DNA from: an uncultured Thermoactinomycetaceae bacterium
GTDB taxonomy: Bacteria; Bacillota; Bacilli; Thermoactinomycetales; CALJVA01
DNA length: 64,000 bases
Reading direction: 5' to 3'
NCBI GenBank assembly: GCA_937975135.1
Contig: CALJVA010000067.1
Span: 17,792-81,791 of the forward strand
Shown piece after piece: positions 27,107-41,087 of this stretch (its first letter is position 1; every line of letters begins with the position of its first letter). The notes below the pieces were generated by a model. That model was not told the DNA's origin and made no database searches. It saw nothing but the letters and a program-made list of their open reading frames with translations. A program made the translations under genes and the position numbers.

Positions 27107-27757
27107 ATGTATCCAGTTGAGATTTTTGTAGTTCATTATCCAGACAGCCTATTATCAGGATTGCAGCTCGTGTTGGAACGCGATATTGAAATTGTAAAAA
27201 GAGGAATCCTCGCAAACCTGTCTACTGAGAAAGATACCTTTCTGTCTAAAGTATCTTGGAAATGTTTTGGAAAAGACATAAAAGAAGTTCAGCAGGCGAT
27301 TACTGAAAAGAAAAGCTCAACAAAGGTGATTTTGTACGCCGATTGTTTGCCAGATTACTGGTTTAGTTATCTCTTAAAAGGTGTCAATGCTGTGGTAGCT
27401 ATCAAAGATCATCAGGAGTTACCAATCGCCATACACCTTGTCTCTCTAGGTGGAATTTATCTCAGCAAGGAATATAAAAATTGTTTTCGTAAAGGGCTAT
27501 ACTTCGAAACTGGTTTTGAATTAGCTAAAAATTGTATAGGATTAACTGAAATGGAGATAAAAGTGATTCGGGAAATTGCACAGGACCGTTCAAATAAGGA
27601 AATTGCTGAAGTGCTCTATATTAGTGAGCGGACTGTAGAATATCATATTTCCTCTGCAATGCGGAAAATGGGAGTAAAGTCAAGGGTTGGATTAGTTGTT
27701 AATATACTAAAAATGAATTTGATAGATTTGAAGGAAATACAAAAATTAAACAGTTGA
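27107..27757 (+). CDS. Orphan LuxR/GerE-family regulator with degenerate receiver-like N-terminus
   Basis: C-terminal HTH LTEMEIKVIREIAQDRSNKEIAEVLYISERTVEYHISSAMRKMGVKSR. The N-terminus EIFVVHYPD lacks the acidic DD pocket of NarL-type receivers. No cognate kinase lies nearby. Confidence 0.8.
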   Translation: MYPVEIFVVHYPDSLLSGLQLVLERDIEIVKRGILANLSTEKDTFLSKVSWKCFGKDIKEVQQAITEKKSSTKVILYADCLPDYWFSYLLKGVNAVVAIKDHQELPIAIHLVSLGGIYLSKEYKNCFRKGLYFETGFELAKNCIGLTEMEIKVIREIAQDRSNKEIAEVLYISERTVEYHISSAMRKMGVKSRVGLVVNILKMNLIDLKEIQKLNS

Positions 27758-27958: not shown

Positions 27959-28033
27959 GCAAGAAATGAAATTTGAATCACCCCCGTCGATGATTTCAAA
28001 AAATGCATGTTTTACAGAAAGGGGGTGAAAAGA

Positions 28034-28186
28034 ATGGAACTGAAGGATCTGGAAATCACTGGGTTAGAAGTGATGGAGTTGAATGATGCGACAGCATTGC
28101 CAGAAACCGGAGCATCTTCTGGTTCAACTTCCTGCTCTGCTACCTCCACATGCGGTTCCTCCTCCTGCTGTGGATCTTGCTGGTAA
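28034..28186 (+). CDS. Thiopeptide/lactazole-type RiPP precursor peptide A1 (50 aa)
   Basis: Hand translation: MELKDLEITGLEVMELNDATALPETGA-SSGSTSCSATSTCGSSSCCGSCW*. RBS GGGGGTG 6 nt upstream. Absent from the ORF track because it is shorter than 60 aa. Confidence 0.85.
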   Translation: MELKDLEITGLEVMELNDATALPETGASSGSTSCSATSTCGSSSCCGSCW

Positions 28187-28288
28187 TGGGTGAGGGAATC
28201 TTTGTAATCATCAGTTTAGATTGGTGATTCCAGTAATAAAAGGATAACTTTATACTTCCCTCAATGCCTTTATGAAAGAGGGGATAGT

Positions 28289-28441
28289 ATGGAACTGAAA
28301 GATCTAGAAATCTCAGGTATCGAGATAATGGATCTAAAAGATGCTACAGCATTGCCAGAGACAGGTGCTTCTGCGGGATCGTCTGGCTGCTCTGCTTGCT
28401 CTACCTGTGGTTCTTGTTCTTGCTGTAGCTCTTGTTTCTAA
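28289..28441 (+). CDS. Thiopeptide/lactazole-type RiPP precursor peptide A2 (50 aa)
   Basis: MELKDLEISGIEIMDLKDATALPETGA-SAGSSGCSACSTCGSCSCCSSCF*. RBS GAGGGGA upstream. Confidence 0.85.
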   Translation: MELKDLEISGIEIMDLKDATALPETGASAGSSGCSACSTCGSCSCCSSCF

Positions 28442-28468
28442 GAATCTACTTTGAGAGGAGGTGAAACT

Positions 28469-28618
28469 ATGGAATTGAAAGAGTTGGAAATCACAGGTTT
28501 GGAAGTAATGGACTTGAATGATGCCACTGCATTGCCAGAAACCGGAGCATCTTCAGGCTCCTCTTCTTGCTCCGCTACATCTACTTGTGGTTCTTCTTCC
28601 TGCTGCGGCTCTTGCTAA
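28469..28618 (+). CDS. Thiopeptide/lactazole-type RiPP precursor peptide A3 (49 aa)
   Basis: MELKELEITGLEVMDLNDATALPETGA-SSGSSSCSATSTCGSSSCCGSC*. RBS AGGAGGTG 5 nt upstream. Confidence 0.85.
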   Translation: MELKELEITGLEVMDLNDATALPETGASSGSSSCSATSTCGSSSCCGSC

Positions 28619-28675
28619 GCTATGGAAGAGGATAATGATTGGGGCCTACAACAAAAGTTATTACTTTTACTTACC

Positions 28676-28715
28676 AATGATGTAATCGATGTGTTTTCAC
28701 ATCGGTTACATCATT
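28676..28715 (+). promoter_or_regulatory. 18-bp stem-loop between the precursor genes and the enzyme genes (attenuator or mRNA-stabilising hairpin)
   Basis: aatgatgtaatcgatgtg-tttt-cacatcggttacatcatt: 17 Watson-Crick pairs plus one G-U. Followed by tatgtattt, a weak U-tract. Confidence 0.5.
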
Positions 28716-28776
28716 TATGTATTTAAGCAATTTTTCACATAATCTAGATAATTAGTTAAAAGTAAGGAGGATTATA

Positions 28777-31509
28777 GTGGCGCAGGCAGGAGTTGCCCTT
28801 TCAACACCCTCAAGGAAACAAGTCATTGATTTGCCTCTATTTATGCTCCGTGTGGCGGGAATGCCTATTCATGAGCTTCTGCGAATGCGGATTCCGCTGA
28901 CGATGAAGTGTCTTAAAGAAATGACCGAAAATCAAAGGTGGATTGAGGCCAACACCCAATGGATTATAGAAAAAATTGAGCAGGAAGTTCCTAAACAGAA
29001 GGATGATAAAATACGTAATCAGCTAATTCAATATAAAAGGGATATTTTTAACAATCGCTTTCCTAAAAAACGCTCCGATCACTTTCACTCTGTTTTACCT
29101 TCTTCCCTACTTGAGCAGATGAAACAATGGGAAGAAGTTTGGCTTACCATTAAAAAATTGAAAGAGGAAGCAAGTCAACATTTTCCCCAAGAGCTTACTA
29201 AGAATCGGGAAGTACTACAGGAAATTATTCAGGATCCGAACTTATTGAGAGGCGTTGTTTTAACAAGCCGCGATTTGTACTACAAGGTGAAAAAATATAT
29301 TGAAACACCGATTCCCAAGCAAAAAGCGAGATTACGAAAAGTAGAGTATTCCCTGAGCAAGTATATTTCTCGTGTAGCAGCTAAAACCAGCCCTTTTAGC
29401 ACATTCACATCTGTAGGGATTGGAGAATGGAGCTCAGAGCATAAGGATGGAAAGCTTCATATTGCCTCTCTTCAGCATAAGAGCCATGTTCAGCTGAATT
29501 ATGCAAACCTTTTGCGGGTAGTGGATGGACTGGTTAAGCAACCGGCGGTAAGAAAACATCTGTCTTACAAAGTAAACCCAACACTGATTGTCGATGAGGG
29601 CAAAGTGAAGTATATTCGACGGTTGGATGATTCTCAAAGAAGAGCCCGCGTTTTCAAGACATTGGAAACACCTGTTTCTTTGAATTTAAATCCAGCGATT
29701 CAAGCAGTGTTTTCTATTCTTCAATCGGAAGATCAGGGTAAAATCGGTTTTATTGAGTTAGCAAAAAGGCTAACTGAACAATTGTCTACTGCCCCAGAAA
29801 ATGTAGAAAAGTTTCTACATCAATTGATTGACTTAGCGATCCTTGTTCCTGATCTTCATTTATATGAACAGACAAATGAGATTATTCCATCCATATTAGA
29901 ATTAATTAAGGAATGGCCGGAAGAAATTGCACAGCGAACTGGAAGTCGATTACAAGACATGGAAGACATTCTGGCCCAATATGGCTCAGCTTCAGTTGAG
30001 GAGCGTGCCGCTTATTTGCAGCGCGTTAAAGAAATTTATCGAGATATATGCACAGACCTTCAGATTGAAATTTCGGAGACCTCTCTGGGACTCTTAGTCT
30101 ATGAAGACGCAATTTTGCAGGAAAAATCATCCTTTTCACTAGATAATTGGAAAGAGTATCTTAATGATCTAGTGGCCTACCAGTCAATTGCCCCTATTTT
30201 TGATGTTAAATTCCGCATTCAATCTGCAATTGCCCAGAAGTTTATCGAAATGTATGGGGAGGATGGAGTGTGTGATAAACCAGGGCAGTTTCTAAGTACT
30301 GTCGTTCCAACATTAACAGAGTTTTATTCTGCCTTTTTACCTACTGCCTTGCCAAAGGATTTGGAGCTTAAGAATGAGTTGAAGCCAATTCGGATATTAA
30401 ACGAGTTACAAAGAGAAATGGGCGAGTTATTATTAGAACGATTTAAGAATGAACAGGAAGAAGTCCACCTTACTCATGAAGAATTGACTTCCTTTGCAGA
30501 GCGGATTCCAAAGGAGATTGCGAGACGGCCTCTGTCCCATGACTGCTTTGTGCAACTGGTTTCCCGTAGTGATGGTGAGGATCTACTCGTACTTAACCAG
30601 ATGTATTTGGGGAATACCACCTTTTTTACACGATTTCTTTCTTATTTTCCAGAGGAAGAGATCACCCAACTACTTCGAAATTATCTATCTACTCTCTATG
30701 AAAAAGAAGGGGTACTGGCAGAAATTTCGGGCGTATATGGTTTTAATGCCAACCTTCATCCTCCTTTGACGCCGTATGAGCTGTCACTTCCCATGTTATC
30801 ACCTACAAGAGATAAAGGAGAAAAAATTAATTGGGAAGACTTGGTGATGGTATACAACAAAGAAAAAGATCGTGTGATTCTTCGTCATCCTGAACTGGGT
30901 GAAGTGACAACACTATTTTTAGGTACCCTGATTCCCATGTTGATTCCCTTTGTGGTTAATTTTATGGCAACCAATTTTAGTAATGGACATTTTTCTAATT
31001 GGTTTCATTTGTTTGCAGAACAAAAATTAACAGAGGAAGAGAAGCAGCAAGTGCGAGTCTATCCTCGTATTTCTGTCGGACGGGTAGTTGTTGCACGTAA
31101 AAAGTGGATTTTTCCCCGCTCCCAACTGGTATATCGTGAAGCGAGGGATGATGAATTTTCCTACTTTACACGAGTGCATGAGTGGAGAAAGAAGTGGGAC
31201 TTACCAGATCGTCTCTTTTTCCGTTTGGCGGCTGAGCGTCAATCAGAGGAATCAACGTTCTCTTTGGATCCCCAAGCAACAGCCAATACAGAGGAGATCG
31301 ATTTTACGGACTTTAAACCCCAATACCTTGACTTCGAAAATCCTTTATTAGTACGTATGTTTGGAAAAATGATCGCAGACAATTCTTACTATGTCATTAT
31401 GGAAGAAATGTTGCCTGATATTGATAATCTGGCTTTATCGAGTGATGGTAGTTCTTATGTTTCAGAACTTTTAGTAGAACTTAGTCGACCAGGATTGAGG
31501 GAGGAATAG
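28777..31509 (+). CDS. LanB-type dehydratase, N-terminal glutamylation domain protein (Lant_dehydr_N)
   Basis: 910 aa. N-terminal FMLRVAGMPIHEL motif and size are typical of split class I lanthipeptide/thiopeptide dehydratases (TclK/LazB-like). GTG start after AAGGAGGA. Confidence 0.8.
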   Translation: MAQAGVALSTPSRKQVIDLPLFMLRVAGMPIHELLRMRIPLTMKCLKEMTENQRWIEANTQWIIEKIEQEVPKQKDDKIRNQLIQYKRDIFNNRFPKKRSDHFHSVLPSSLLEQMKQWEEVWLTIKKLKEEASQHFPQELTKNREVLQEIIQDPNLLRGVVLTSRDLYYKVKKYIETPIPKQKARLRKVEYSLSKYISRVAAKTSPFSTFTSVGIGEWSSEHKDGKLHIASLQHKSHVQLNYANLLRVVDGLVKQPAVRKHLSYKVNPTLIVDEGKVKYIRRLDDSQRRARVFKTLETPVSLNLNPAIQAVFSILQSEDQGKIGFIELAKRLTEQLSTAPENVEKFLHQLIDLAILVPDLHLYEQTNEIIPSILELIKEWPEEIAQRTGSRLQDMEDILAQYGSASVEERAAYLQRVKEIYRDICTDLQIEISETSLGLLVYEDAILQEKSSFSLDNWKEYLNDLVAYQSIAPIFDVKFRIQSAIAQKFIEMYGEDGVCDKPGQFLSTVVPTLTEFYSAFLPTALPKDLELKNELKPIRILNELQREMGELLLERFKNEQEEVHLTHEELTSFAERIPKEIARRPLSHDCFVQLVSRSDGEDLLVLNQMYLGNTTFFTRFLSYFPEEEITQLLRNYLSTLYEKEGVLAEISGVYGFNANLHPPLTPYELSLPMLSPTRDKGEKINWEDLVMVYNKEKDRVILRHPELGEVTTLFLGTLIPMLIPFVVNFMATNFSNGHFSNWFHLFAEQKLTEEEKQQVRVYPRISVGRVVVARKKWIFPRSQLVYREARDDEFSYFTRVHEWRKKWDLPDRLFFRLAAERQSEESTFSLDPQATANTEEIDFTDFKPQYLDFENPLLVRMFGKMIADNSYYVIMEEMLPDIDNLALSSDGSSYVSELLVELSRPGLREE

Positions 31510-31512
31510 TTT

Positions 31513-32652
31513 TTGTGGAAAGCGATTCATATTTATTATTACCAAGATGATAAAGAAGGTTTGTTACTGGATGGCATTCGTCCTGTAGTCAAAAGTTTGC
31601 GCGATACATACCAGGTTGAACGTATTTATCTAAAGAGACATTGGAAATTGGGTCCTCACATTATTTTATATGTCGATGCTTTGGAAGAAAGATTTGAAAA
31701 AGTACTTTATCCCTTTATTGAACAAGAAATTTACAAGTATCTTAAGGAACACCCATCGACACAGGTGATCGATCCCGTTGCTTATGTAAAGCAATCAGAA
31801 ACATTGGGTGCGTGGGAGCTGGAACCAGGCCCTTATGAACCGCTTGAACCAGACAATTCCATCAGTGTTAAGCCTGTTCGATCTCGAGCTGAATTGGTCA
31901 ATGGGGAAGAAGTAGCTCATCTCATTGAGAACTTTATGGTAGACAGTGTTGATCTTGTGTTTGACTGTTTGGATTCTACTCGAGGTCAAATTAATCAGCG
32001 GTATGGAAAACTGATTCAGATGATGGCTGTAATTGGCCAAATGTATCCCGTTGATGGGATTATCCGTGGTCATCTTTCTTATCGATCCCATGTTGAAGGG
32101 TATTTGCATTCTTTTGATAAAGAGGGAAAGATTCGACAAGTTTTTTTAGAAAATGAACGTGGAATGATGAAGACCGTCGATCATCTTGTACGGGATATTA
32201 TGGACCATACAAATGAGGATGGTACTTACGGAGGGGACGACCCCTTTTTACAGTCCTGGTCAGAAGTTCTTTCTAAATTGTATCAAGAAGCATTCCCTCT
32301 GGCTCAAGCAGGAAAAATTAACGCTGACACATCCCACTATAGAGAGATTGCCGCTAGAATAGGGGAACAAGCAAAAAAGCGTTGGGATCTAACACAGGAT
32401 CAAAGCGATTTTCACCGGCATCTTCAATCGGAAGAAGAAGGTTTGCGTGTTTTAAACAGTCCTGAATTTGCAACCTATCGTATCTTGGTAAATAATTTTT
32501 ATTCCTTGTTGCCTCTTTTGGGAATTAATCCAAATGTAAAGCACTTACTCTGTTTTCTGGTTGCCAATTCTGTAGAGAGAATTGCACAAGTAACATGGCA
32601 GGAACTTATGGGATATCAAAAGGGTGAGAATACTTATGAAACCAAAACTTAA
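31513..32652 (+). CDS. Thiopeptide-type bacteriocin biosynthesis domain protein (SpaB_C / Lant_dehydr_C): glutamate-elimination partner or pyridine synthase
   Basis: 379 aa. Family hallmark W..IHIYYY....LLLDGIRPVV...YLKRHWKLGPHIILYV. Confidence 0.75.
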   Translation: MWKAIHIYYYQDDKEGLLLDGIRPVVKSLRDTYQVERIYLKRHWKLGPHIILYVDALEERFEKVLYPFIEQEIYKYLKEHPSTQVIDPVAYVKQSETLGAWELEPGPYEPLEPDNSISVKPVRSRAELVNGEEVAHLIENFMVDSVDLVFDCLDSTRGQINQRYGKLIQMMAVIGQMYPVDGIIRGHLSYRSHVEGYLHSFDKEGKIRQVFLENERGMMKTVDHLVRDIMDHTNEDGTYGGDDPFLQSWSEVLSKLYQEAFPLAQAGKINADTSHYREIAARIGEQAKKRWDLTQDQSDFHRHLQSEEEGLRVLNSPEFATYRILVNNFYSLLPLLGINPNVKHLLCFLVANSVERIAQVTWQELMGYQKGENTYETKT

Positions 32653-34498
32653 ACAGACTGTTCACTTCGCACCAACAGAAGACGGGGTATATTTTAAGAC
32701 ATGGACCGGTGAATTTGCGATCAAAGGCAAAGGGTTGTATCAATGGATTGAACAGATGGTACCTTATTTAGATGGAAATAGAACCATTGAAGAGCTGGTG
32801 GAACCTTTATCTCCCGAACAAGAACAGTTTGTGAGGCATCTCATTAATCAGCTGGTACAGCGTGGTGTAATTAAAGATGCGACTGAGGAATCCCATGTAG
32901 TCTTATCGGAGCGGGAAAAAGAGCTTTATCAACAGACTATCCTGTACTTAGAAGAGTATGCTTCTGATGGACGAAAACAATTTCAACGGTTTCGGCACAG
33001 TCAATGGATGGTTTTTGGTTCTGGATTAAGTTACCGTTCCTGTGTTCGTTCAGTAATTTCCCTTGGAGTAAAAACACTTTACTTAGAAAAGACAGAAGAT
33101 ATCACCTTGATTCGTTGGATCGAAAAGTGGCAAAAGAAAGATCCTGAATTTAAAGTGACATGGATCTCCAGTGAGAAAGAAGAGGAAATTCTAGATACAG
33201 TTGTCGATAAGCAACTTGATCTAGCAATCTATGTGAGTGATCAGTATGATTCCGAGCGGATTTCTTCTTTGATCCAGTTCCTTGGAAAACATGAGATAGA
33301 TCTTCTGATCACCAGCAATATCGAAAACCGAGGGATTGTAGGTCCTATCATTACTAAAGAAGAACCAACAAGTTGGTACAGTCTACAGGATCGTCTGCAT
33401 CCAAAGAAGGAGGTTGCTGCTTCTCCTCCTCCTACTTTTTATCTCATGCTTGGCAATCTTGCTGCTTTGGAGGCATTTAAGTTTGTCAATGGATTGCCAG
33501 ATCAAGGGGTAGTGGATGGAGTTGTTATTTTGACGCCGGAGCAACTGGAGACGAAGCGTCATCCTGTTTTGTCATCTCCCTTCTTTAACAAGAAGGAGAG
33601 TGTGGATGAAGAAGAATGGCTACATCGTTTTCAGAAGAAATCAGAGGAAGAGGATCAAGAGGTATTCCTAGAACAAATTGCAGAGATCAGTGATCCACAG
33701 CTTGGAATCCTTCATCCAGTTCATCCTGGGGATCTCTGGCAGATTCCACTTCTTTTTATGGGAGCAACGCTTCATTTTCCTCGTTCTATGAATCGTGAAA
33801 TCAAGCAATTTGTAGCAGGGAAAGAAAATGTATCAGATGCAACGGAGCAAGTGATCCGAGATGCACTCACTTATTATGCTCAAACGATTCACGAATACGA
33901 AGGAGATGAAGAGCTTGCTGCTACGTCATATGTTTGGGAAAACGGACGAACTTTTGCTGAATGGTTGGGCAGAGGCGCCTTGAAGGCTTGGGCTCAGATG
34001 GTGAAACAGTCAGCACCAGCCAAGGAGCTGCCTTTGGAGATTCCCTCCTTAAAAATTGGTACCTATGTAAAAATGTTATCCCTTCGTTATGGGTGTAACA
34101 TCCGCTTAATTGAAGTGGATCTAGGTTTACCTTCTTCCCATTATGTACAAGTATTGGACAATGGAAACATATTGGCAGAAAGTGTGGGTCGTACTCAGGA
34201 TGAAGCGGTTGAACTCGCCTTGGTACAGGGAATCAGCCAAATGCAGTTGAAAAATCATCATCCGGAACTTTGTGATCCTTTGGAACCCTCTTGGTTTGCT
34301 AGATCACTTGAAGTAGGTGAGTGGGAAAATAAGCAACCCATACCTTCCTGGCAGGAATGGAAAAGGAATGCAGAAGAGTATTGGAAAGAAAAGGGATGGG
34401 AGCTGATTGTAAAACCCTGGTATCGTGACCCAGCTTGCTATGAAGCAGGTTTGTTGATTGGGCGGATCGGATTTAAAGAAGGGAGAGGGGTTGAATGA
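32636..34498 (+). CDS. TOMM/thiopeptide leader-peptide-binding (RRE / E1-like) cyclodehydratase partner protein
   Basis: The N-terminus KLKQTVHFAPTEDGVYFKTWTGEFAIKGKGLYQWIEQMVPYLDGNRTIEELV is typical of PqqD-like RRE N-termini of azoline-forming C proteins. The C-terminal GRTQDEAVELALVQGI weakly recalls a YcaO motif. Confidence 0.6.
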   Translation: MKPKLKQTVHFAPTEDGVYFKTWTGEFAIKGKGLYQWIEQMVPYLDGNRTIEELVEPLSPEQEQFVRHLINQLVQRGVIKDATEESHVVLSEREKELYQQTILYLEEYASDGRKQFQRFRHSQWMVFGSGLSYRSCVRSVISLGVKTLYLEKTEDITLIRWIEKWQKKDPEFKVTWISSEKEEEILDTVVDKQLDLAIYVSDQYDSERISSLIQFLGKHEIDLLITSNIENRGIVGPIITKEEPTSWYSLQDRLHPKKEVAASPPPTFYLMLGNLAALEAFKFVNGLPDQGVVDGVVILTPEQLETKRHPVLSSPFFNKKESVDEEEWLHRFQKKSEEEDQEVFLEQIAEISDPQLGILHPVHPGDLWQIPLLFMGATLHFPRSMNREIKQFVAGKENVSDATEQVIRDALTYYAQTIHEYEGDEELAATSYVWENGRTFAEWLGRGALKAWAQMVKQSAPAKELPLEIPSLKIGTYVKMLSLRYGCNIRLIEVDLGLPSSHYVQVLDNGNILAESVGRTQDEAVELALVQGISQMQLKNHHPELCDPLEPSWFARSLEVGEWENKQPIPSWQEWKRNAEEYWKEKGWELIVKPWYRDPACYEAGLLIGRIGFKEGRGVE

Positions 34499-36462
34499 AG
34501 CGGCAGATTTGGGTAGTTGGAGAGGGAACCTTTGCTGACCAGGTATTGAAGCAAATCGAAGTAAATGCTTCACTAATCCAAAAATGTATCGCCGATTTAC
34601 ATGAAGCAAATGATCAACATCAACCAGATGTAATTCTAAGTTTGCTTGATTACCGTGGAATTGAAGAGGAGTTGGAGATCCAAAGAATTGCAGGTCGCTT
34701 GCAAGTACCCTACTTACGTGCTCACTTATATACGGATCGGGCCTATATTGGGCCTTGGGTAATGCCCGAGAAAGAAGGATGTATTCGCTGTGCAGAGTAT
34801 CGGATGAGGACGGCCCATCCACATCGTGACATGGAAGAGGGAATGGTGAAGGCACAAAAAAGTGTACGTTATCTAGAAGCAAAAAAGTGCTGGAGCGTTC
34901 CCTTTCTTTCCTATTGTAGTGTGTTGATTGAAGGAGAATTGCAACAGTGGATTTCTGGAGGGCCATTGCAATTGATTGAGCAGATGTATGTGGGTTACGA
35001 TCATTTACTCACCGGACAGCTTCATCGGTTTCAGCCGAATCCAGTCTGCCCCGAATGCAGTCCTCTTCCCGATGATACCCCCGAGCTTTGCCAGTTAAAT
35101 CTTGTTCCACGACGCAAACCATCTCCACGAACCTATCGCTTACCCAATCCGAATCTGTCCAGAGAAAATTTGCGTCGTCAATTTTATGACTGGCGGATGG
35201 GAATATTTCGTCATATCTACCGGGATATTTATTCAAGTTTGTTACCGATTTGTGGGTCGGAACTACCTTTGGATGATCGGATGATCGAACGTGGTTTTGG
35301 GCGGACGACAACATTTAATGATTCGGAAAAGACCGCAATGTTGGAAGCTCTAGAAAGGTATGCTGGTATGAAACCGCGGGGCAAACGGACCGTGGTTCGA
35401 GGTTCTTATCGGGAGCTAAAAGATCGGGCGATTCACCCCCCGTCATTGGGCCTTCATGATCCAAAACAAGCGAATGAGCCAGGGTATAATTATCGGCCCT
35501 ACGATGATGATACTCCCTTTAACTGGGTTTGGGCCTATTCCTGGAAAGAAAAAAAGCCCGTTTTGATTCCAGAACAAATGGTTTATTACCGCTCCACAGA
35601 AACGAAGGATCGCTTTGTTTATGAAACCTCTAATGGTTGTGCGATGGGAGGGTCCTTAGAAGAAGCAATCTTCTATGCATTGTTGGAAGTGATTGAGCGG
35701 GATGCTTTCTTGATTGCTTGGTATAATCGCTTGCCTTTGGTTCATTTGGATATTGAAGATGTGAAAGATCCCAATATTTTGTTGGTTAAAGATCGCGTTA
35801 CTGCGATGGGATATCAGCTCCACTTTTTCGATATGACCATGGATAGTAAGGTTCCAAGTATATGGGCTACTTTGATCAATCCCGCTGAAGATGCTGGAGT
35901 GAAAACCTATTCCGCCGCCGGAGCTCACCCTGATCCCGAAAAGGCACTAATGGGGGCAATGGTGGAAGTTGTTACCTCTGTACCAATTTATGAACAAACC
36001 ATGCCACAACAGCGGGATCGTGCAACAGAGATGGTAAAGGATCCAGGAAAAGTTCAATTGATGGAAGATCATGTATTGCTTTATTCCCATCCTGATACGC
36101 TGAGTCGGTTTGATTTTTTGTTTACAGAACAAAGTAAAACAAAAAAAATGCGGGAGGCATATCGGGACTGGTATGAAAAGACACCCCCAGAAGATTTGAC
36201 AGAAGAACTTACGGCTTTAGTTGAGCGAATCCTCCAGAATAACCATGATCTTCTAATTGTTGATGAAACCACTCCCGAACTACGAAAAGTAGGAATTTAT
36301 GCGGTAAAGGTTTTTGTTCAAGGAATGCTTACGATGTCCTTCGGTCATCAGTATCGCAGGATTATTCTTGACCGTGTACAACAAGCCCCCATTTTGGCTG
36401 GCTATCGTACACATCCGATCAAGGAAGAAGAGATCAATCTTCATCCTCACCCCTTTCCGTGA
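34495..36462 (+). CDS. YcaO-family cyclodehydratase (azoline synthase) with N-terminal E1-like/zinc-ribbon region
   Basis: 655 aa. YcaO motifs GFGRTTTFNDSEKTAMLEALERYAG and ETSNGCAMGGSLEEAIFYALLEVIERDAF. N-terminal CIRC...CPEC cysteine pairs. ATGA overlap with the upstream gene. Confidence 0.85.
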   Translation: MKRQIWVVGEGTFADQVLKQIEVNASLIQKCIADLHEANDQHQPDVILSLLDYRGIEEELEIQRIAGRLQVPYLRAHLYTDRAYIGPWVMPEKEGCIRCAEYRMRTAHPHRDMEEGMVKAQKSVRYLEAKKCWSVPFLSYCSVLIEGELQQWISGGPLQLIEQMYVGYDHLLTGQLHRFQPNPVCPECSPLPDDTPELCQLNLVPRRKPSPRTYRLPNPNLSRENLRRQFYDWRMGIFRHIYRDIYSSLLPICGSELPLDDRMIERGFGRTTTFNDSEKTAMLEALERYAGMKPRGKRTVVRGSYRELKDRAIHPPSLGLHDPKQANEPGYNYRPYDDDTPFNWVWAYSWKEKKPVLIPEQMVYYRSTETKDRFVYETSNGCAMGGSLEEAIFYALLEVIERDAFLIAWYNRLPLVHLDIEDVKDPNILLVKDRVTAMGYQLHFFDMTMDSKVPSIWATLINPAEDAGVKTYSAAGAHPDPEKALMGAMVEVVTSVPIYEQTMPQQRDRATEMVKDPGKVQLMEDHVLLYSHPDTLSRFDFLFTEQSKTKKMREAYRDWYEKTPPEDLTEELTALVERILQNNHDLLIVDETTPELRKVGIYAVKVFVQGMLTMSFGHQYRRIILDRVQQAPILAGYRTHPIKEEEINLHPHPFP

Positions 36463-36472: not shown

Positions 36473-38020
36473 ATGAATCGAGATCTTACCATCGGTCGCA
36501 CTTTTATTCACAATAAAACCTATTACCGTTTTCGGACGGCTCAAGATTTAAAATTGCGATCAGTTCCGGAAAGGTTTGTAACTGAGAAACCCGCAAAAAA
36601 AATGATTCCTTTAACGTGGGATGTATATCCTGATTTGGGGGAGATGGAGAGCTTTGGTCCGTTAAAAGTCCCATCTTTTGAGAGGAGAATAGCAACGCTT
36701 CTTTACTATACAATGGGACTTCTCCGTTATGAGGTGAATAGTCCACGGGCGTTTCATCGCCCTTTTCCTTCTCCTCGTGGTCTCTACGCATCGGAGATTT
36801 ACCTCTCTCTTCCTCAAGAAATAATCGGGGAAGCTGGTATCTATCGCTACAATCCGCTTTACCACGCTGTGGAAAAAAGGCGTTCGTTTACAGGATGGCA
36901 ACAGATTGAAGCAGCAATTGGTATCTCGCTTACAGATGCACAAGGTGTACTCGTGTTAGGTATTGACTTTTGGCGCATCGCCCATGTCTACGATGATTTT
37001 GCGCTAAATTTGGCCACGATAGAGGCAGGGCATGCTTTGGGACAGATCCTCCTTACGGCCCAACGTTTATCATGGGATGTTTCTGTTCATTACACCTTCA
37101 TAGATCAAGAGATTTTATCCTTATTTGGGTTGAACGAAGCGGAAGAAGCTCCGTTGGCCGTAATTGTTTTATGGCCTGCAGGGAAGAAAAAAATTGAGCC
37201 GGCCACCAAATTCTTTGCTCCATCGTTACCGCCCTTCACCGTCCATTCCCGCTATAGCCGGGAAATGGCACAGTGCAAGGAGATGCTGGAAATGGTACGA
37301 GCCTCTCGATTGCGTCGAGGGGATCCCTTTCCCTTAATAGAGATAGAGAAGGGTATATTCGAAGGAGATAAAAAAAGAATGGATTGGGTGCCGTTTCAAG
37401 TAGTAGGAGCAGAGTGGCATGATCCCAGTTGGCTAGAAGCGGTGAAAAGGCGAAGTTCGGGAAATGATCTGGGGGGGATGATGGCAGCCAGTACGTCCCT
37501 TAGCTTTACCCAGTTATCGAAGATGTTGCTCTTATTATTAGGGGAAAAACAATGGGAATGGCAAGTGGCATTAAAACATGTGAAAATTTTTGTGGTGGCT
37601 AATCGGGTGAATAATCTTAGGTCAGGTATTTATCGGGTAGTAAGAGAGCCGGATGGATTGATCCCTTACCGACAAGGATCTATGGGGGAATTACTGCAGA
37701 AATTGAGTATTTATTCTCCACAAAGTTGGAATGCCCATTCTTTTCCCGTCTCTATTTTTCTGGCGGTCGACTATCAAAGTGTACTGGAACGGTATGGAAA
37801 TCGCGGTTTTCAGATGGTTCAGCTGTGGATGGGTCAGATTAGCCAACATCTATCCTTATCAGCTGCTGCGATGGACTTTTTCTTACGTCCCCTTAAAAGC
37901 TTCTACGAAGAAGAAGTTGAACATGCTTTTGGTTTGTTATCAACGAAGGATACAATTGCTTATCAACTTATTTTGGGAAAAAATAAAACACCTTATTTAT
38001 CTTTCGATCTTGGATTTTAA
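36473..38020 (+). CDS. SagB-type (nitroreductase-fold, FMN) azoline dehydrogenase, two-lobed 515-aa form
   Basis: ATG 36473 follows GAGGTGG. PSPRGLYASEIYL and RRSSGNDL motifs are typical of SagB/McbC-type dehydrogenases. The track start at 36314 would overlap the YcaO gene by about 150 nt. Confidence 0.75.
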   Translation: MNRDLTIGRTFIHNKTYYRFRTAQDLKLRSVPERFVTEKPAKKMIPLTWDVYPDLGEMESFGPLKVPSFERRIATLLYYTMGLLRYEVNSPRAFHRPFPSPRGLYASEIYLSLPQEIIGEAGIYRYNPLYHAVEKRRSFTGWQQIEAAIGISLTDAQGVLVLGIDFWRIAHVYDDFALNLATIEAGHALGQILLTAQRLSWDVSVHYTFIDQEILSLFGLNEAEEAPLAVIVLWPAGKKKIEPATKFFAPSLPPFTVHSRYSREMAQCKEMLEMVRASRLRRGDPFPLIEIEKGIFEGDKKRMDWVPFQVVGAEWHDPSWLEAVKRRSSGNDLGGMMAASTSLSFTQLSKMLLLLLGEKQWEWQVALKHVKIFVVANRVNNLRSGIYRVVREPDGLIPYRQGSMGELLQKLSIYSPQSWNAHSFPVSIFLAVDYQSVLERYGNRGFQMVQLWMGQISQHLSLSAAAMDFFLRPLKSFYEEEVEHAFGLLSTKDTIAYQLILGKNKTPYLSFDLGF

Positions 38021-38047: not shown

Positions 38048-39019
38048 ATGAAACGGGATTGGCATGCTTATCACATTTTTTATCATCGGTTTGATAAACA
38101 AGACTCACTATTGCTAGACTGTATTGCTCCACTAGTAGCTGAGGTTCAGGAAAAAAACTTATGCAAGGATTGGTTTTTTATCCGCTATTGGGAAGGTGGA
38201 CCTCATATCCGTCTTCGTTTTTTGGATCCGGATCCTTTGGTTGAAACGATGATCCATGAGAGAATCACTGATTTTATTACAGCTTATCCACCTAAAGAAG
38301 AGATCACTCGGGATCAGTATTATCGAAATCATAAGTTTGATGGAGAACCCGTTGATCCAGACACCTTGCCATGGTATCCCAATGGAAGTATTGTGAAACT
38401 TCCTTATGAGCCGGAATATCAGCGCTATGGTGGAAAAGATGCGATGGCAATCAGTGAGAAAATCTTTACCTATTCTAGTGAAATGGCTTTGAAGGTGATG
38501 GGAGAGTCCGCTGGAGATTTGGCCAAACGATTAAATTTGGCCATGGATTTGATGATTTTAACCGCTAGGTGTTTAGATGTAAGGTTCGAAGAGCTTGCCG
38601 GTTATTTTAAGCGCTATGCAGATTATTGGGGTGGGTTTTTGGATCAACCCAAAGAAGCAGTACAAAAAATTGAATTTACATTTTCTAAGCAGGCTGAGCG
38701 ACTTGTAAAACGATTAGCCATATTGGAGAAGATCCATGATTCTCAAGAAGAGGTGCCACTTTATCGAATATGGGTGGAGCAATTAAAGTCAGCCCAACAA
38801 AGTTACCATCAGTTGGCAAGCGAAGGAAAGTTGATATCCCCTATTTCGATTCCTAATAAGAAAGGGGATCAAACGCGATTTGCCGTTTCAGCGATTGCTT
38901 TTTCTCAGATCCATATGACCAATAATCGTCTTGGACTTGCGCCTCCCTTTGAACATTATCTAGGTTATATGATTTATTTAATTGCGCAACATCGCCAATC
39001 TTCAATAAATGCTTCCTGA
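38048..39019 (+). CDS. Second thiopeptide-type bacteriocin biosynthesis domain protein (SpaB_C-like): candidate [4+2] pyridine synthase (TclM/LazC-like) or elimination domain
   Basis: 323 aa. Hallmark WHAYHIFYH...SLLLDCIAPLV...WFFIRYWEGGPHIRLRF. Confidence 0.7.
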   Translation: MKRDWHAYHIFYHRFDKQDSLLLDCIAPLVAEVQEKNLCKDWFFIRYWEGGPHIRLRFLDPDPLVETMIHERITDFITAYPPKEEITRDQYYRNHKFDGEPVDPDTLPWYPNGSIVKLPYEPEYQRYGGKDAMAISEKIFTYSSEMALKVMGESAGDLAKRLNLAMDLMILTARCLDVRFEELAGYFKRYADYWGGFLDQPKEAVQKIEFTFSKQAERLVKRLAILEKIHDSQEEVPLYRIWVEQLKSAQQSYHQLASEGKLISPISIPNKKGDQTRFAVSAIAFSQIHMTNNRLGLAPPFEHYLGYMIYLIAQHRQSSINAS

Positions 39020-39064: not shown

Positions 39065-39946
39065 ATGAAAAAATCAACACAGTGGATGTTCGCTTCTTTA
39101 AACAGCCTTACACCAGCAGAGCGGTTAAAACGGAAGGGAAAGGATTTCCCTAATCCTTTTTCACTGGCAGAGTTGTATCACGAAAACAGCAAGTATCATC
39201 CGAACTTGATGTCATACCAGATGCCCCTACATCAGTATGCAACACCCGATTACGCCAAAATGCGAAGGAAAGATTATGTGGACCTTCCTTCATTAAAGGA
39301 GCTGCCATCGTTACCTGTCCCATTAGGAGAAGTATTGAAGCGGAGGCGAAGCGAGTGGGACTTTGCCTTGCCAGTTACCTTTGAGCAACTGGCACAAGTA
39401 CTGCAGCATGCTTGGGGTGTTTCGGCTTACAAGCCTGTGCAAGATCATGACGGCAGCACCTTTGATCTTCGGTTACGAACCTACCCGTCAGGGGGGGCTC
39501 TATATCCCATTCAAATGATTATCTATGCACAACAAGTGGAAGGGCTTCAGTCCGGTTTATATCAATTTTCAGCTTTCGACAATCGGTTATATCGAATTTC
39601 AGGTGAACTGGACCCCGATTCTTTTTCTCGCTTAACCCCCTCCACGGATCCGGACCGCAATCCCATTTATCCTGGAAGTGACTTTCGTAAGGCGGCCTTT
39701 TTTTGCTTTTTATATGCGGACTTTACCAATCAAGCGGATAAGTATGGACTGCGGGCCTATCGTCTCGCACTGTTGGAAGCAGGACATGCAGCACAAAATT
39801 TACTCCTAGTCACTACGGCATTACAGTTGAAGAGTGTTCCTCTGGCGGGTTTTTATGATGATCGAGCCCATCAGCTGTTGCAGCTAAATGGTGTTGATCA
39901 AGCTTTGTTATATATAATTCCTGTGGGCAAATCGAAGGAGACTTAA
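39065..39946 (+). CDS. SagB/ThcOx-family dehydrogenase (293 aa)
   Basis: LYHENSKY, RRRSEWDF, TYPSGGALYP and AGHAAQNLLL motifs of the SagB-type dehydrogenase domain. Confidence 0.8.
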   Translation: MKKSTQWMFASLNSLTPAERLKRKGKDFPNPFSLAELYHENSKYHPNLMSYQMPLHQYATPDYAKMRRKDYVDLPSLKELPSLPVPLGEVLKRRRSEWDFALPVTFEQLAQVLQHAWGVSAYKPVQDHDGSTFDLRLRTYPSGGALYPIQMIIYAQQVEGLQSGLYQFSAFDNRLYRISGELDPDSFSRLTPSTDPDRNPIYPGSDFRKAAFFCFLYADFTNQADKYGLRAYRLALLEAGHAAQNLLLVTTALQLKSVPLAGFYDDRAHQLLQLNGVDQALLYIIPVGKSKET

Positions 39947-39948: not shown

Positions 39949-41070
39949 ATGATAAACAAAGAAACGCATGAGGAATGGTTGGATAAGGTATATCAATTGC
40001 GTCCTGGATATTTCTTTTCCTTTCCGAAGCCCCATGAGATGCAGATTCGCTTGAAAAGCTGGGGAGAGAGTCTGATTTGGCTGCGCGGTCGTGAAGGAGA
40101 GGACTGGGTATCTCACTTTTTCAGTGGGCTTGATGGCTTTCATCGGTTGAGGGAGCTTATTCAAAGAGTACCCAGAGAATATCATGAAAATGTATTTAAG
40201 ATACTCGCTGCTCTAAGACCTCGCTTTCTTATAGAATCAACCCTTAGCACTACAACTCGAATAGAAAAACGTTGGCAACAGATACTGGGAGTGAGAGCAA
40301 CAGCGATGGAGGAATATCAAAAAGCTTTAGCAGAAGCTCGCGTCTTAATCTTTGGAGCAGGTAAGTTAGGAAGTCGCTTTGCAACGAGCTTGGCCCAATG
40401 GAATCCACAGCAGCTTATGATTGTGGATGATGAAAAGATTACTCGAAATGATATTGAAGAAAGCCCTGCTTATGCTTTTTTTGAGGTAGGGGAGAACCGG
40501 GGAGAAGCTTTGGCCAAAACGATTAATCGGATGGCTGGGCGCACCTTAGCCGAAGGTGTGAACCTATCTTACGAAGACTTACAAGGTTTACGGGAGAGAA
40601 TCGAAAATTCAACACATGTTTTTGTGGCTATTGATCGCTATTCACCTGCTTTATATGATAAGGTTAATCATATCGCACTGGAGAAAAAAGTGCGTTGGTC
40701 TTTTCTGTTGGTAGATGGATGGGACTTATATGTTGGGCCTACTTTTTTTCCTGAACAATCGGGATGCTATCATTGTTTGGAACTGACCAAAAAGAGTGAT
40801 ATGCAAAAACCTGCTTCTTATGAAGCTTTCCGTGAAAGTTTGATCAGAGGAGAAAAAGCGCCTGATTTATGTAGTCCGATCGCTGCAGATTTGGCAGCGG
40901 GATTTTTGGCTGCGGATGCCATTCATCTCTTTGGGTTGATGCCCCAACGGATTGAAGCGGAAGCTAGTTTAACAATCGGTAGACAGCTCCATGTAAATTT
41001 ACGTACCTTTGACGCTTATTTTCATCCAATGATTAAGAAGCCTCGGTGTACAGTGTGTGGCACAGTCTAG
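39949..41070 (+). CDS. ThiF/E1-like protein with N-terminal RRE-like region (ocin-ThiF-like)
   Basis: Rossmann RVLIFGAGKLGSRFATSLAQ...MIVDDEKITRNDI, paired cysteines CYHC ... CTVC, and an N-terminal wHTH-like segment. Confidence 0.65.
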   Translation: MINKETHEEWLDKVYQLRPGYFFSFPKPHEMQIRLKSWGESLIWLRGREGEDWVSHFFSGLDGFHRLRELIQRVPREYHENVFKILAALRPRFLIESTLSTTTRIEKRWQQILGVRATAMEEYQKALAEARVLIFGAGKLGSRFATSLAQWNPQQLMIVDDEKITRNDIEESPAYAFFEVGENRGEALAKTINRMAGRTLAEGVNLSYEDLQGLRERIENSTHVFVAIDRYSPALYDKVNHIALEKKVRWSFLLVDGWDLYVGPTFFPEQSGCYHCLELTKKSDMQKPASYEAFRESLIRGEKAPDLCSPIAADLAAGFLAADAIHLFGLMPQRIEAEASLTIGRQLHVNLRTFDAYFHPMIKKPRCTVCGTV

Positions 41071-41087
41071 AAAGGGGAGAAGAGAAC

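What the first reader, a model, noticed from the sequence alone, without database searches (positions are those of the whole stretch)
28034..28618. Three tandem, unannotated precursor-peptide genes with almost fully modifiable Ser/Thr/Cys cores
Three small ORFs lie just upstream of the LanB/YcaO enzymes. The six-frame track misses them because they are 50, 50 and 49 aa. Each has its own Shine-Dalgarno sequence. Hand translation gives nearly identical 27-residue leaders (MELKDLEITGLEVMELNDATALPETGA). The cores are SSGSTSCSATSTCGSSSCCGSCW, SAGSSGCSACSTCGSCSCCSSCF and SSGSSSCSATSTCGSSSCCGSC. The leader end L-x-D-x-x-ALPE-x-GA followed by Ser resembles the lactazole precursor LazA as I recall it (...LRDHVALPENGA-SWGSCSC...). 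In core A1, 18 of 23 residues are Ser, Thr or Cys, so they are potential Dha/Dhb/azole sites; in A2 it is 17 of 23. None of the three cores matches a thiopeptide, goadsporin-type or lanthipeptide core that I can recall. Nearly every residue could be rewritten post-translationally, which points to an extremely dense polyazole/dehydroamino-acid product.
Basis: partly seen in the sequence, partly recalled or inferred. Interest (0 to 1): 0.92.

Follow-up and report, generated by a model that had tools for sequence, protein, structure and literature searches.

The report
Three lactazole-type thiopeptide precursor genes
Three small tandem genes encode precursor peptides of a known but chemically unstudied family of thiopeptide natural products (relatives of lactazole); they are real and intact, but the same kind of gene cluster is already present and annotated in several cultured bacteria.

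Summary
Three + strand ORFs (28034-28186, 28289-28441, 28469-28618) encode 50-, 50- and 49-residue peptides exactly as transcribed, and each has a Shine-Dalgarno site. They are real genes. All three exceed the curated cut-offs of Pfam PF19409 and NCBIfam NF033400. The paralogues differ mostly at synonymous sites (dN/dS 0.02-0.10). A sister species keeps all three.

The downstream operon encodes a full thiopeptide enzyme set in laz order.

The cores are not unique. About 90 distinct variants of SSGxxxCxxxSTCGSSSCC occur in Bacillota, Actinomycetota, Pseudomonadota and Deinococcus. The complete 11-gene architecture is found in Staphylospora marina, Tumebacillus avium and Paenibacillus tarimensis, where NCBI already names the peptides.

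I found no characterised product. The near-invariant [S/T/C]16-Ser17-Cys18 motif suggests pyridine closure between Ser1 and Ser17. That would give a 47-membered ring, against 26-35 in known thiopeptides, but it is inference only. An MccB-like adenylating enzyme conserved in the Bacilli clusters is unexplained.

Verdict: new member of a known kind, of moderate interest.

The parts
27107..27757 (+). LuxR/GerE-type transcription regulator, probably specific to the cluster
   Evidence: Pfam GerE 65 bits. It is kept next to the precursors in the sister species and in Paenibacillus tarimensis.
28034..28186 (+). Precursor A1: 27-residue leader plus core SSGSTSCSATSTCGSSSCCGSCW
   Evidence: NF033400 60.9 bits (cut-off 30); PF19409 59 bits (cut-off 23.5). 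The exact peptide is indexed in 48 blocks of public assemblies. SD GGGGGTG at 28021-28027.
28289..28441 (+). Precursor A2: core SAGSSGCSACSTCGSCSCCSSCF; the fast-evolving copy
   Evidence: NF033400 58.0 bits; PF19409 62.5 bits. dN/dS against A1 is 0.10. The orthologue in the sister species has a different core, SSGISGCSASSTCSSTSCCGSCF. SD AAGAGGGG at 28276-28283.
28469..28618 (+). Precursor A3: core SSGSSSCSATSTCGSSSCCGSC
   Evidence: NF033400 58.7 bits; PF19409 61 bits. dN/dS against A1 is 0.02 with dS saturated. SD GGAGGTG at 28457-28463.
28676..28715 (+). 18-bp stem-loop between the last precursor gene and lanB; probably an attenuator or processing/stability hairpin that sets the precursor-to-enzyme ratio (inferred)
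   Evidence: Fold z-score -4.4. It is kept with one loop change in the sister species. A strong hairpin sits at the same position in Staphylospora, Tumebacillus and Paenibacillus.
28777..31509 (+). Split LanB, glutamylation domain (LazB/TbtB type)
   Evidence: Pfam Lant_dehydr_N 162.8 bits. PDB 6ec7, the thiomuracin dehydratase (deposited as 'lantibiotic dehydratase domain protein'), E 1e-43 over the full length.
31513..32652 (+). Pyridine synthase homologue (LazC/TbtD type)
   Evidence: NF045556 288.6 bits over the full length, below the equivalog cut-off of 325. PDB TbtD E 1e-35, PbtD E 1.5e-21.
32636..34498 (+). Ocin-ThiF-like protein with an N-terminal leader-binding (RRE) domain (LazD/TbtF type). 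The start is as called on public contigs; the longest ORF starts at 32624.
   Evidence: TIGR03693 109 bits. The N-terminal 9-84 matches PbtF (8t19), E 2e-11.
34495..36462 (+). YcaO cyclodehydratase with an N-terminal E1-like domain (LazE/TbtG type)
   Evidence: Pfam YcaO 289 bits; TIGR03604 359 bits; TIGR03882 90.5 bits. PDB TruD, MusD and LynD, E 1e-26 to 1e-28.
36473..38020 (+). Long SagB-type FMN dehydrogenase (SagB1, 515 aa); an extra enzyme relative to laz
   Evidence: TIGR03605 116.8 bits. The start is confirmed by sequence and by gene calls on public contigs. Homologues lie at the same position in Tumebacillus, Staphylospora and Paenibacillus (same position and length class) and in Glaciecola (496-aa nitroreductase), with a weak blastp match in Deinococcus.
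38048..39019 (+). Split LanB, glutamate-elimination domain (N-terminal half of LazF / TbtC type)
   Evidence: Pfam Lant_dehydr_C 165.6 bits; TIGR03891 106.7 bits.
39065..39946 (+). Short SagB-type azoline dehydrogenase (SagB2; corresponds to the C-terminal half of LazF)
   Evidence: TIGR03605 111 bits. In Deinococcus arcticus it is fused to the elimination domain as a single 579-aa protein. PDB 3eo7, McbC.
39949..41070 (+). MccB/PaaA-like E1 adenylating enzyme (ThiF2); role in this pathway unknown
   Evidence: Pfam ThiF 72 bits. Family profile against PDB: MccB E 2e-25 over nearly the full length. Conserved GAGxLGSR, Asp160, Asp229 and two CxxC pairs. Present in all Bacilli clusters that were seen whole.
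41046..41828 (+). ABC transporter ATPase (export or immunity)
   Evidence: Pfam ABC_tran 111 bits; DrrA-like 245 bits.
41830..42570 (+). ABC-2 permease (export or immunity)
   Evidence: Pfam ABC2_membrane 98.9 bits.

Best explanation
A1, A2 and A3 are three paralogous, functional lazA-type thiopeptide precursor genes. They form the first genes of a roughly 15-kb operon (27.1-42.6 kb) in an uncultured spore-forming member of the Bacilli.

Proposed pathway, by homology with the reconstituted lactazole and thiomuracin pathways:
1. The leader, ending ...DATALPETGA, is bound by the RRE domain of the ocin-ThiF-like protein and by LanB.
2. The YcaO enzyme converts Cys, and selected Ser/Thr, to azolines. 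The two SagB-type dehydrogenases oxidise these to azoles.
3. The split LanB dehydrates Ser/Thr to Dha/Dhb. The 910-aa protein performs tRNA-Glu-dependent glutamylation and the 323-aa protein performs elimination.
4. The TbtD-like pyridine synthase joins Dha1 and a downstream Dha in a [4+2] reaction, releasing the leader as a carboxamide.
5. The ABC transporter exports the product.

The downstream Dha is most probably Ser17, flanked by an azole at position 16 and a thiazole at position 18. That would give a 47-membered macrocycle with a short C-terminal tail.

Shown here: the genes, their family membership, purifying selection, synteny and conservation. Inferred: every chemical step, the ring size, and which residues are modified.
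For: - Sequence and Shine-Dalgarno sites.
- Curated family models are passed by all three peptides and by LazA itself. hhalign of LazA against the family profile gives 98.5% probability.
- dN/dS of 0.02-0.10 between paralogues.
- All three genes are orthologously retained in a sister species at 86% nucleotide identity.
- Peptides are identical on five of six independent public contigs. The sixth has one leader substitution in A3.
- The full enzyme set has close structural-family matches: TbtB 1e-43, TbtD 1e-35, PbtF RRE 2e-11, TruD/LynD 1e-28. It forms a tight co-directional operon.
- The same 11-gene architecture occurs in Staphylospora marina, Tumebacillus avium and Paenibacillus tarimensis, in unrelated genomic neighbourhoods.
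- Across 92 distinct family cores, [S/T/C]16-S17-C18 is nearly invariant, while position 12 varies between T, S and C.
- A2 and its orthologue change residue 16 among S, C and T, all of which can form azoles.
- In LazA, Ser1, Ser10-12 and Cys13 are the indispensable residues, and oxazole11-Dha12 is the minimal recognition motif (PMC7210931).
Against: - There is no expression or mass-spectrometry evidence.
- The pyridine-synthase homologue scores 288.6 bits, below NCBIfam's equivalog cut-off of 325.
- The register against LazA is ambiguous. HMM alignment is gapless and puts the LazA SSSC over T10-S11-T12-C13. MAFFT puts a 5-residue gap and aligns it with S15-S16-S17-C18.
- Some family members begin the core with Thr rather than Ser.
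- No natural thiopeptide ring larger than 35 atoms is known (PMC7210931).
- No sigma-70-like promoter was found directly upstream of A1.
Confidence: 0.85

Rival explanations
1. The product is a linear azole- and dehydroalanine-containing peptide (goadsporin-like) and is not macrocyclised. On this reading the TbtD-like protein is inactive or has another role.
For: - The pyridine-synthase homologue is below the NCBIfam equivalog cut-off, 288.6 against 325.
- LanB has a weak match to a goadsporin enzyme, 9jhq, E 1.7e-8.
- The predicted ring would be unprecedentedly large.
Against: - The TbtD match covers the full length, at E 1e-35.
- The homologue is retained in every related cluster.
- LanB is far closer to the thiomuracin dehydratase structure 6ec7 (1e-43) than to the goadsporin enzyme.
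- The precursors belong to the LazA family.
- Laz enzymes close rings of up to 62 atoms in vitro (PMC7210931).
Confidence: 0.08
2. A macrocyclic thiopeptide is made, but with a ring of conventional size, because a different Ser pair is used. Candidates are Ser6-Ser17 (32-membered, the lactazole spacing) or Ser1-Ser11/Thr12. The rest of the core would form a tail or part of the leaving group.
For: - HMM and hhalign align LazA Ser10-Ser11-Ser12-Cys13 gaplessly with T10-S11-T12-C13.
- Proteobacterial members carry C10-S11-S12-C13.
- Ser6 to Ser17 has the same 11-residue spacing as LazA Ser1 to Ser12.
- All known natural rings have 26-35 atoms.
Against: - Position 12 is Thr in the Bacilli and Cys in many actinobacterial members, so it cannot always be Dha.
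- Position 6 is Gly in A2 and Pro, Asn or Gly in others.
- Ser17-Cys18, with an azole-capable residue at 16, is the only such motif conserved family-wide.
Confidence: 0.25
3. Only one of the three genes is the real substrate; the others are decaying duplicates or decoys.
For: - A2 is the most divergent copy and is often missed by gene callers.
- Most relatives carry identical copies rather than variants.
Against: - All three have intact Shine-Dalgarno sites, start codons and leaders.
- dN/dS is 0.02-0.10 with saturated dS.
- All three are retained in the sister species, with conservative or azole-preserving changes.
- Staphylospora marina also carries at least four different cores.
Confidence: 0.07
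4. The three ORFs are chance open frames or a non-coding repeat.
For: None beyond their small size.
Against: - HMM E-values of 1e-16 to 1e-17 against two curated models.
- The synonymous-biased divergence.
- More than 140 homologous clusters in public data.
Confidence: 0

Closest known systems
LazA and the laz cluster (lactazole A, Streptomyces lactacystinaeus)
   Same: - Same curated precursor families, NF033400 and PF19409.
- The leader end is (L/M)xDxxALPE(T/N)GA, followed by Ser-x-Gly-Ser.
- A Ser-Ser-Ser-Cys block is present in A1 and A3.
- The enzyme order is B (glutamylation), C (pyridine synthase), D (E1-like/RRE), E (YcaO), F (elimination plus dehydrogenase).
   Different: - The core is longer: the SSSC block sits at 15-18 instead of 10-13.
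- It is far richer in Ser/Thr/Cys, 17-18 of 22-23 residues.
- Position 2 is Ser or Ala, not Trp.
- LazF is split into two proteins.
- There are two extra enzymes, the long SagB1 and the MccB-like ThiF2, plus an ABC exporter and a LuxR regulator.
- There are three precursor genes instead of one.
- The host is a low-GC member of the Bacilli.
Unnamed, uncharacterised clusters of Staphylospora marina CP034118, Tumebacillus avium CP021434 and Paenibacillus tarimensis CP166298
   Same: - An identical 11-gene architecture with tandem precursors.
- Cores differ by only a few residues, e.g. SSGSTSCSASSTCGSSSCCASC and SSGSSSSSGCSTCGSSSCCGSC.
- NCBI annotates the peptides as thiazolylpeptide-type bacteriocins.
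   Different: - Enzymes are 37-61% identical.
- The genomic locations differ.
- Tumebacillus and Paenibacillus carry identical copies, whereas this window carries three different cores.
Thiomuracin (Tbt) and thiocillin (Tcl) pathways
   Same: - Split LanB, TbtD-type pyridine synthase, TbtF-type RRE protein, YcaO and a long dehydrogenase.
- Several tandem precursor genes, as in tclE-H (PMC5100339).
   Different: - The window peptides give no listed hit (E up to 0.1) to the thiomuracin (NF033399) or thiocillin/thiostrepton (NF033401) precursor models.
- The gene order differs.
- The cores are unrelated.
MccB (microcin C7) and PaaA (pantocin A) peptide-adenylating E1-like enzymes; relevant to ThiF2 only
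   Same: A near full-length profile match at E 2e-25 to MccB, with the Gly-rich loop and both CxxC pairs aligned.
   Different: ThiF2 sits inside a thiopeptide cluster. The substrate and chemistry are unknown, and the N-terminal 70 residues do not align at the sequence level.

Membership tests
Lactazole-type thiopeptide precursor (NCBIfam NF033400 thiazolyl_B / Pfam PF19409 Thiopep_pre) | Score above the curated cut-off of the family model | tested here: met
   A1, A2 and A3 score 60.9, 58.0 and 58.7 bits against a cut-off of 30. In PF19409 they score 59, 62.5 and 61 bits against 23.5, covering 36 of 36 model positions.
Lactazole-type thiopeptide precursor (NCBIfam NF033400 thiazolyl_B / Pfam PF19409 Thiopep_pre) | The prototype LazA falls in the same model | tested here: met
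   LazA (from the supplementary data of PMC7210931) scores 66.7 bits in NF033400 and 51.1 bits in PF19409. hhalign gives 98.5% probability.
Lactazole-type thiopeptide precursor (NCBIfam NF033400 thiazolyl_B / Pfam PF19409 Thiopep_pre) | Leader ends ...DxxALPE(T/N)GA directly before the first core Ser | tested here: met
   The window has NDATALPETGA|S and KDATALPETGA|S. LazA has RDTVALPENGA|S.
Lactazole-type thiopeptide precursor (NCBIfam NF033400 thiazolyl_B / Pfam PF19409 Thiopep_pre) | Core residues shown to be indispensable in LazA: Ser1, then Ser-Ser-Ser-Cys around the 4-pi site | tested here: inconclusive
   Ser1 is present in all three. S15-S16-S17-C18 is present in A1 and A3, and S15-C16-S17-C18 in A2. 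The block lies 5 residues further from Ser1 than in LazA, and the alignment register is ambiguous.
Thiopeptide biosynthetic gene cluster | Split LanB dehydratase, YcaO cyclodehydratase with an E1-like/RRE partner, azoline dehydrogenase and a pyridine synthase adjacent to the precursor | tested here: met
   The pyridine synthase homologue is full length but is below the NCBIfam equivalog cut-off, 288.6 against 325.
Thiopeptide (the natural-product class) | The mature product contains a six-membered nitrogen heterocycle closing a macrocycle, with azoles and dehydroamino acids | not testable with these tools
   This needs LC-HRMS/MS or NMR of the product.
Thiocillin/thiostrepton (NF033401) or thiomuracin/GE37468 (NF033399) precursor families | Score above the model cut-off | tested here: not met
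   No hit at E up to 0.1 for A1-A3. LazA itself reaches 30.8 bits in NF033399.
Goadsporin-type linear azole peptide | Azole and Dha machinery without a pyridine synthase | tested here: not met
   A TbtD-like protein is present and conserved in relatives. LanB matches the thiomuracin dehydratase structure 6ec7 at 1e-43, against 1.7e-8 for the goadsporin enzyme.
Class I lanthipeptide | A LanC cyclase next to LanB | tested here: not met
   No LanC-like domain was found in any of the cluster ORFs scanned.

The most novel reading that the evidence does not exclude
The conserved-core clade, SSGxxxCxxxSTCGSSSCC, makes a thiopeptide whose pyridine joins Ser1 and Ser17. That would be a 47-membered, almost fully heterocyclised and dehydrated macrocycle, well outside the 26-35-membered range of all known natural thiopeptides.

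In the Bacilli, the product would be further modified by an MccB-like adenylating enzyme, for instance at the C-terminal carboxylate. That chemistry has not been described for thiopeptides.

The cross-phylum near-identity of the core would then point to a conserved, non-classical target or function.
Probability: 0.25. Interest if true: 0.7.

Novelty: new member of a known kind. Interest (0 to 1): 0.4.

Why it matters
Lactazole-like clusters make up about half of all predicted thiopeptide clusters (251 of 508). As of 2020 only lactazole itself had been characterised, and its function is unknown (PMC7210931).

This window adds a well-preserved example of one sub-clade with three naturally different cores. 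That sub-clade has a strikingly conserved core and an unexplained MccB-like enzyme.

Solving one product of this clade would show whether nature makes very large thiopeptide rings, and what the extra enzymes do. Cultured strains that carry the same cluster are better starting points than this uncultured organism: Staphylospora marina, Tumebacillus avium, Paenibacillus tarimensis and Bacillus atrophaeus.

Tried and rejected
- Source organism. The GTDB scan with the precursor alignment found 31 related loci but not the source genome. The 90% clusters of DnaK, LepA, TrpRS, LanB and YcaO carry no names. I can therefore say only that the host is an uncultured spore-forming member of the Bacilli, from the holA...trpS-rpsT-gpr-spoIIP synteny.
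- Literature. No held paper contains CGSSSCC, ALPETGASSG, SSGSSSCS or GSSSCCGSC. None describes thiopeptide rings of 38-50 atoms. None links MccB to thiopeptides. The Schwalen 2018 survey (PMC6070396) is not held. Sequences printed only in figures are not searchable, so prior display of these cores cannot be excluded.
- ThiF2 homologue search. The word-indexed search found only four close relatives. Orthologues in named genomes were reached only through LanB-C homologues and their contexts.
- ThiF2 structure. AlphaFold2 with a 5-sequence alignment gave a mean pLDDT of 52, with only the Rossmann core confident. I did not use it for a fold search.
- Promoter. The scan found no sigma-70-like promoter directly upstream of A1.
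- Longer alternative starts. I rejected ATG 28007 for A1 and TTG 28451 for A3, because the Shine-Dalgarno sites and all orthologues support the MELK starts.
Full report
**Observation**

The region 28034-28618 contains three + strand ORFs: A1 at 28034-28186 (50 aa), A2 at 28289-28441 (50 aa) and A3 at 28469-28618 (49 aa).

Each start codon has a Shine-Dalgarno core 5-6 nt upstream: GGGGGTG at 28021-28027, AAGAGGGG at 28276-28283 and GGAGGTG at 28457-28463.

The three genes form a 153-nt direct-repeat family with 74-82% nucleotide identity. Their differences are overwhelmingly synonymous:
- Nei-Gojobori dN/dS is 0.02 for A1 against A3, 0.10 for A1 against A2 and 0.09 for A2 against A3, with synonymous sites near saturation.
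- In the A1 and A3 cores there are 13 synonymous differences and 1 non-synonymous difference.

These are old duplicates, each held under purifying selection on the peptide. They are not chance ORFs.

**What they are**

All three peptides pass two independently curated family models:
- NCBIfam NF033400 'thiazolyl_B': 58.0-60.9 bits against a cut-off of 30. They also pass TIGR03892.
- Pfam PF19409 'Thiopep_pre': 59-62.5 bits against a cut-off of 23.5, covering all 36 model positions.

I took the LazA sequence from the supplementary data of Vinogradov et al. 2020 (PMC7210931): MSDITASRVESLDLQDLDLSELTVTSLRDTVALPENGA|SWGSCSCQASSSCAQP. It scores 66.7 bits in NF033400 and 51.1 bits in PF19409. It aligns to a profile of this family with 98.5% probability.

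The recalled leader differed by one residue from the published construct.

The window peptides give no hit to the thiomuracin (NF033399) or thiocillin/thiostrepton (NF033401) precursor models.

**Surroundings**

From 27107 to 42570, everything is on the + strand with short or overlapping junctions. The genes, in order:
- a LuxR-type regulator
- the three precursors
- an 18-bp stem-loop at 28676-28715 (fold z-score -4.4)
- LanB glutamylation domain (PDB 6ec7, the thiomuracin dehydratase, E 1e-43)
- a TbtD-like pyridine synthase (E 1e-35; NF045556 288.6 bits, below the equivalog cut-off of 325)
- an ocin-ThiF-like protein whose N-terminus matches the PbtF RRE (E 2e-11)
- a YcaO with an E1-like N-terminal domain
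- a long SagB-type dehydrogenase, SagB1
- the LanB elimination domain
- a short SagB-type dehydrogenase, SagB2
- a ThiF-family protein, ThiF2
- an ABC ATPase and an ABC permease

The order glutamylation, pyridine synthase, E1-like, YcaO, elimination plus dehydrogenase is that of lazB-F (the laz order is from established knowledge of the laz cluster). In Deinococcus arcticus the elimination and short dehydrogenase domains are fused into one 579-aa LazF-like protein. The window therefore carries a split LazF.

The flanks are housekeeping genes: holA upstream; trpS with its T-box, a P-type ATPase, gpr and further genes downstream.

**Relatives**

*Same organism.* The exact A1 peptide is indexed in 48 blocks of public assemblies. 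Six contigs that I inspected show the same synteny. The three peptides are identical on five of them, and the sixth has one leader substitution in A3. Gene callers on those contigs always called A1 and A3 but called A2 on only two of six. Under-annotation of A2 is therefore real, though trivial.

*Sister species.* A sister species at 86% nucleotide identity keeps the cluster in the same chromosomal slot, and all three genes are orthologous. Its cores are:
- A1': SSGSTSCSASSTCGSSSCCGSCW
- A2': SSGISGCSASSTCSSTSCCGSCF
- A3': SSGSSSCSASSTCGSSSCCGSC

A1 and A3 each change by one conservative residue. A2 changes at six positions and is the fast-evolving copy. The hairpin is kept with one change in its loop.

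*Same architecture in cultured strains.* The complete 11-gene architecture, with tandem precursors, also occurs in three cultured strains, in unrelated genomic neighbourhoods:
- Staphylospora marina (Thermoactinomycetaceae): at least four different cores.
- Tumebacillus avium (Alicyclobacillaceae): three identical cores.
- Paenibacillus tarimensis: two cores.

Bacillus atrophaeus has the same set minus the long dehydrogenase. NCBI names these peptides 'thiazolylpeptide-type bacteriocin'. Enzyme identities to the window proteins are 37-61%.

*Wider distribution.* The homology search and a GTDB scan recovered 92 distinct cores. They come from Bacillota, Actinomycetota, Pseudomonadota and Deinococcus. 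Nearly all follow [S/T]-S-G-x3-[C/S/T]-x3-[S/C]-[S/T/C]-C-[G/A]-x-[S/T/C]-S-C-[C/V/S/T].

The 19-residue block SSGSSSCSATSTCGSSSCC of A3 is identical in Deinococcus arcticus (P0013). An exhaustive HMMER search of 1.84 billion cluster representatives found 142 clusters at E up to 1e-3, and 39 at E up to 1e-10.

The same leader also precedes ordinary lactazole-like cores, such as SASTSAVWQWLGYSSCAAQILQ in Micromonospora. It even co-occurs with the S/C-rich type in one Streptosporangium/Nonomuraea locus.

**Mechanism**

All steps are inferred by homology with the reconstituted lactazole and thiomuracin pathways:
1. Leader binding by the RRE protein and LanB.
2. YcaO-dependent azoline formation, then oxidation by the SagB-type dehydrogenases.
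3. Glutamyl-tRNA-dependent dehydration of Ser/Thr by the split LanB.
4. [4+2] pyridine formation, with loss of the leader as a carboxamide.
5. Export by the ABC transporter.

In LazA, Ser1, Ser10, Ser11, Ser12 and Cys13 are indispensable, and oxazole11-Dha12 is the minimal motif recognised by the pyridine synthase (PMC7210931).

In this family, the only motif of that kind conserved across all 92 cores is [S/T/C]16-Ser17-Cys18. Residue 16 switches between Ser, Cys and Thr in A1/A3, A2 and A2', and all three can form azoles. Position 12 is what aligns with LazA Ser12 in a gapless HMM alignment. It is Thr, Ser or Cys, so it cannot always become Dha.

A MAFFT alignment instead places a 5-residue gap and aligns LazA A9-S10-S11-S12-C13 with G14-S15-S16-S17-C18.

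I therefore favour closure between Ser1 and Ser17, which gives a 47-membered ring. Known natural rings span 26-35 atoms, although Laz enzymes make rings of 14-62 atoms in vitro (PMC7210931). I hold this assignment at roughly 40-45% confidence. A conventional ring from another Ser pair remains a serious rival.

Not every Ser/Thr need be modified. Lactazole A keeps Ser4.

**Unexplained accessory**

ThiF2 (39949-41070) is not a degenerate TOMM 'C protein'. A profile of seven orthologues matches MccB over nearly its full length (E 2e-25) and matches PaaA (E 2e-14).

The alignment conserves the Gly-rich loop GAGxLGSR, Asp160, Asp229 and both CxxC pairs. It occurs in every Bacilli cluster I could see whole. 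It is absent from the Deinococcus, Glaciecola and actinobacterial versions.

An AlphaFold model was too poor to use, with pLDDT 52. A peptide-adenylating role, for example at the C-terminal carboxylate, is plausible but untested.

**Comparison and novelty**

The peptides are members of the lactazole-type precursor family, and the cluster is a thiopeptide cluster by every sequence criterion I could test. The chemical criterion, a pyridine macrocycle, cannot be tested here.

The literature held here reports no product for this core type:
- Lactazole-like clusters were 251 of 508 predicted thiopeptide clusters, with only laz characterised as of 2020 (PMC7210931).
- Of 80 Bacillus thiopeptide clusters, only thiocillin was known in 2017 (PMC5686519).

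The finding is therefore real and correctly interpreted in kind. It is a new member of a known, already catalogued family rather than something unprecedented. The interesting open points belong to the whole clade and can be addressed in cultured strains: ring size, the cross-phylum conservation of the core, and the MccB-like enzyme.

Interest 0.4.

Noticed in passing
window 39949-41070: An MccB/PaaA-like E1 adenylating enzyme (ThiF2) sits inside the thiopeptide operon. Its Gly-rich loop, Asp residues and two CxxC pairs are intact. It is conserved in all Bacilli versions of the cluster and absent from the Deinococcus, Glaciecola and actinobacterial versions. Its role is unknown, and no held paper links MccB to thiopeptides.
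   Followed up: partly
window 36473-38020 and 39065-39946: The cluster has two SagB-type dehydrogenases. The short one, together with the elimination domain, equals a split LazF; the two are fused in Deinococcus arcticus (L049 18815-20195). The long one is additional to the laz enzyme set and is missing in Bacillus atrophaeus (L046).
   Followed up: partly
window 28676-28715: An 18-bp stem-loop lies between the last precursor gene and lanB. A strong hairpin occupies the same position in Staphylospora, Tumebacillus and Paenibacillus, though their sequences are unrelated. A second 10-bp hairpin follows A1, at about 28205-28228.
   Followed up: partly
window 27838-27931: An AT-rich palindrome (TGATATATATATA...TATATATCTATCA, 27838-27891) and a direct repeat (ACAACGGAATA / ACGACGGAATA at 27894 and 27921, 27-nt spacing) lie upstream of A1. 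The left arm of the palindrome (the AT-rich block around 27834-27862) and the direct repeat are kept in the sister species (L047), where part of the right arm is deleted. They are candidate binding sites for the adjacent LuxR-type regulator.
   Followed up: no
L046 2381-2545; L033, L034 and L036 precursors: Some family members begin the core with Thr instead of Ser (TSGS...): Bacillus atrophaeus, Lysinibacillus, the B. cereus group and Actinokineospora. This is awkward if residue 1 must become the Dha used for the pyridine. Either Ser2 is used or a Dhb takes part.
   Followed up: no
L016, L017, L018 (Streptosporangium, Nonomuraea): One locus carries both a conserved S/C-rich precursor (SSGSSSCGGCSTCGSSSCCGGTEIE, on the opposite strand) and three ordinary lactazole-like precursors with the same leader. 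Two enzyme sets appear to be present.
   Followed up: no
L045 15136-19631 (Glaciecola sp. MH2013): Directly downstream of the proteobacterial version of the cluster lie a JAB protease, a ThiS-rhodanese-ThiF fusion, a second YcaO and TfuA. This looks like a thioamidation or sulfur-transfer module.
   Followed up: no
window 43823-44088 and 7812-7979: A T-box leader lies upstream of the Trp/Tyr-type tRNA synthetase gene (136 bits). A c-di-AMP riboswitch is also present (97 bits).
   Followed up: no
window 44037-61135 (whole-window housekeeping genes): The 90%-identity clusters of DnaK, LepA and TrpRS hold no named member, and the GTDB species set does not contain this genome. The host is an uncultured spore-forming member of the Bacilli, known only from metagenome and SRA assemblies such as ENA ERZ25039577.
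   Followed up: partly
L002 10743-13474 and 16460-18142: On the 1.09-Mb ENA contig that carries the same DNA, lanB is called as two pieces (439 + 445 aa) and ycaO is truncated (560 aa). These are probably assembly indels rather than biology, since the other contigs are intact.
   Followed up: no
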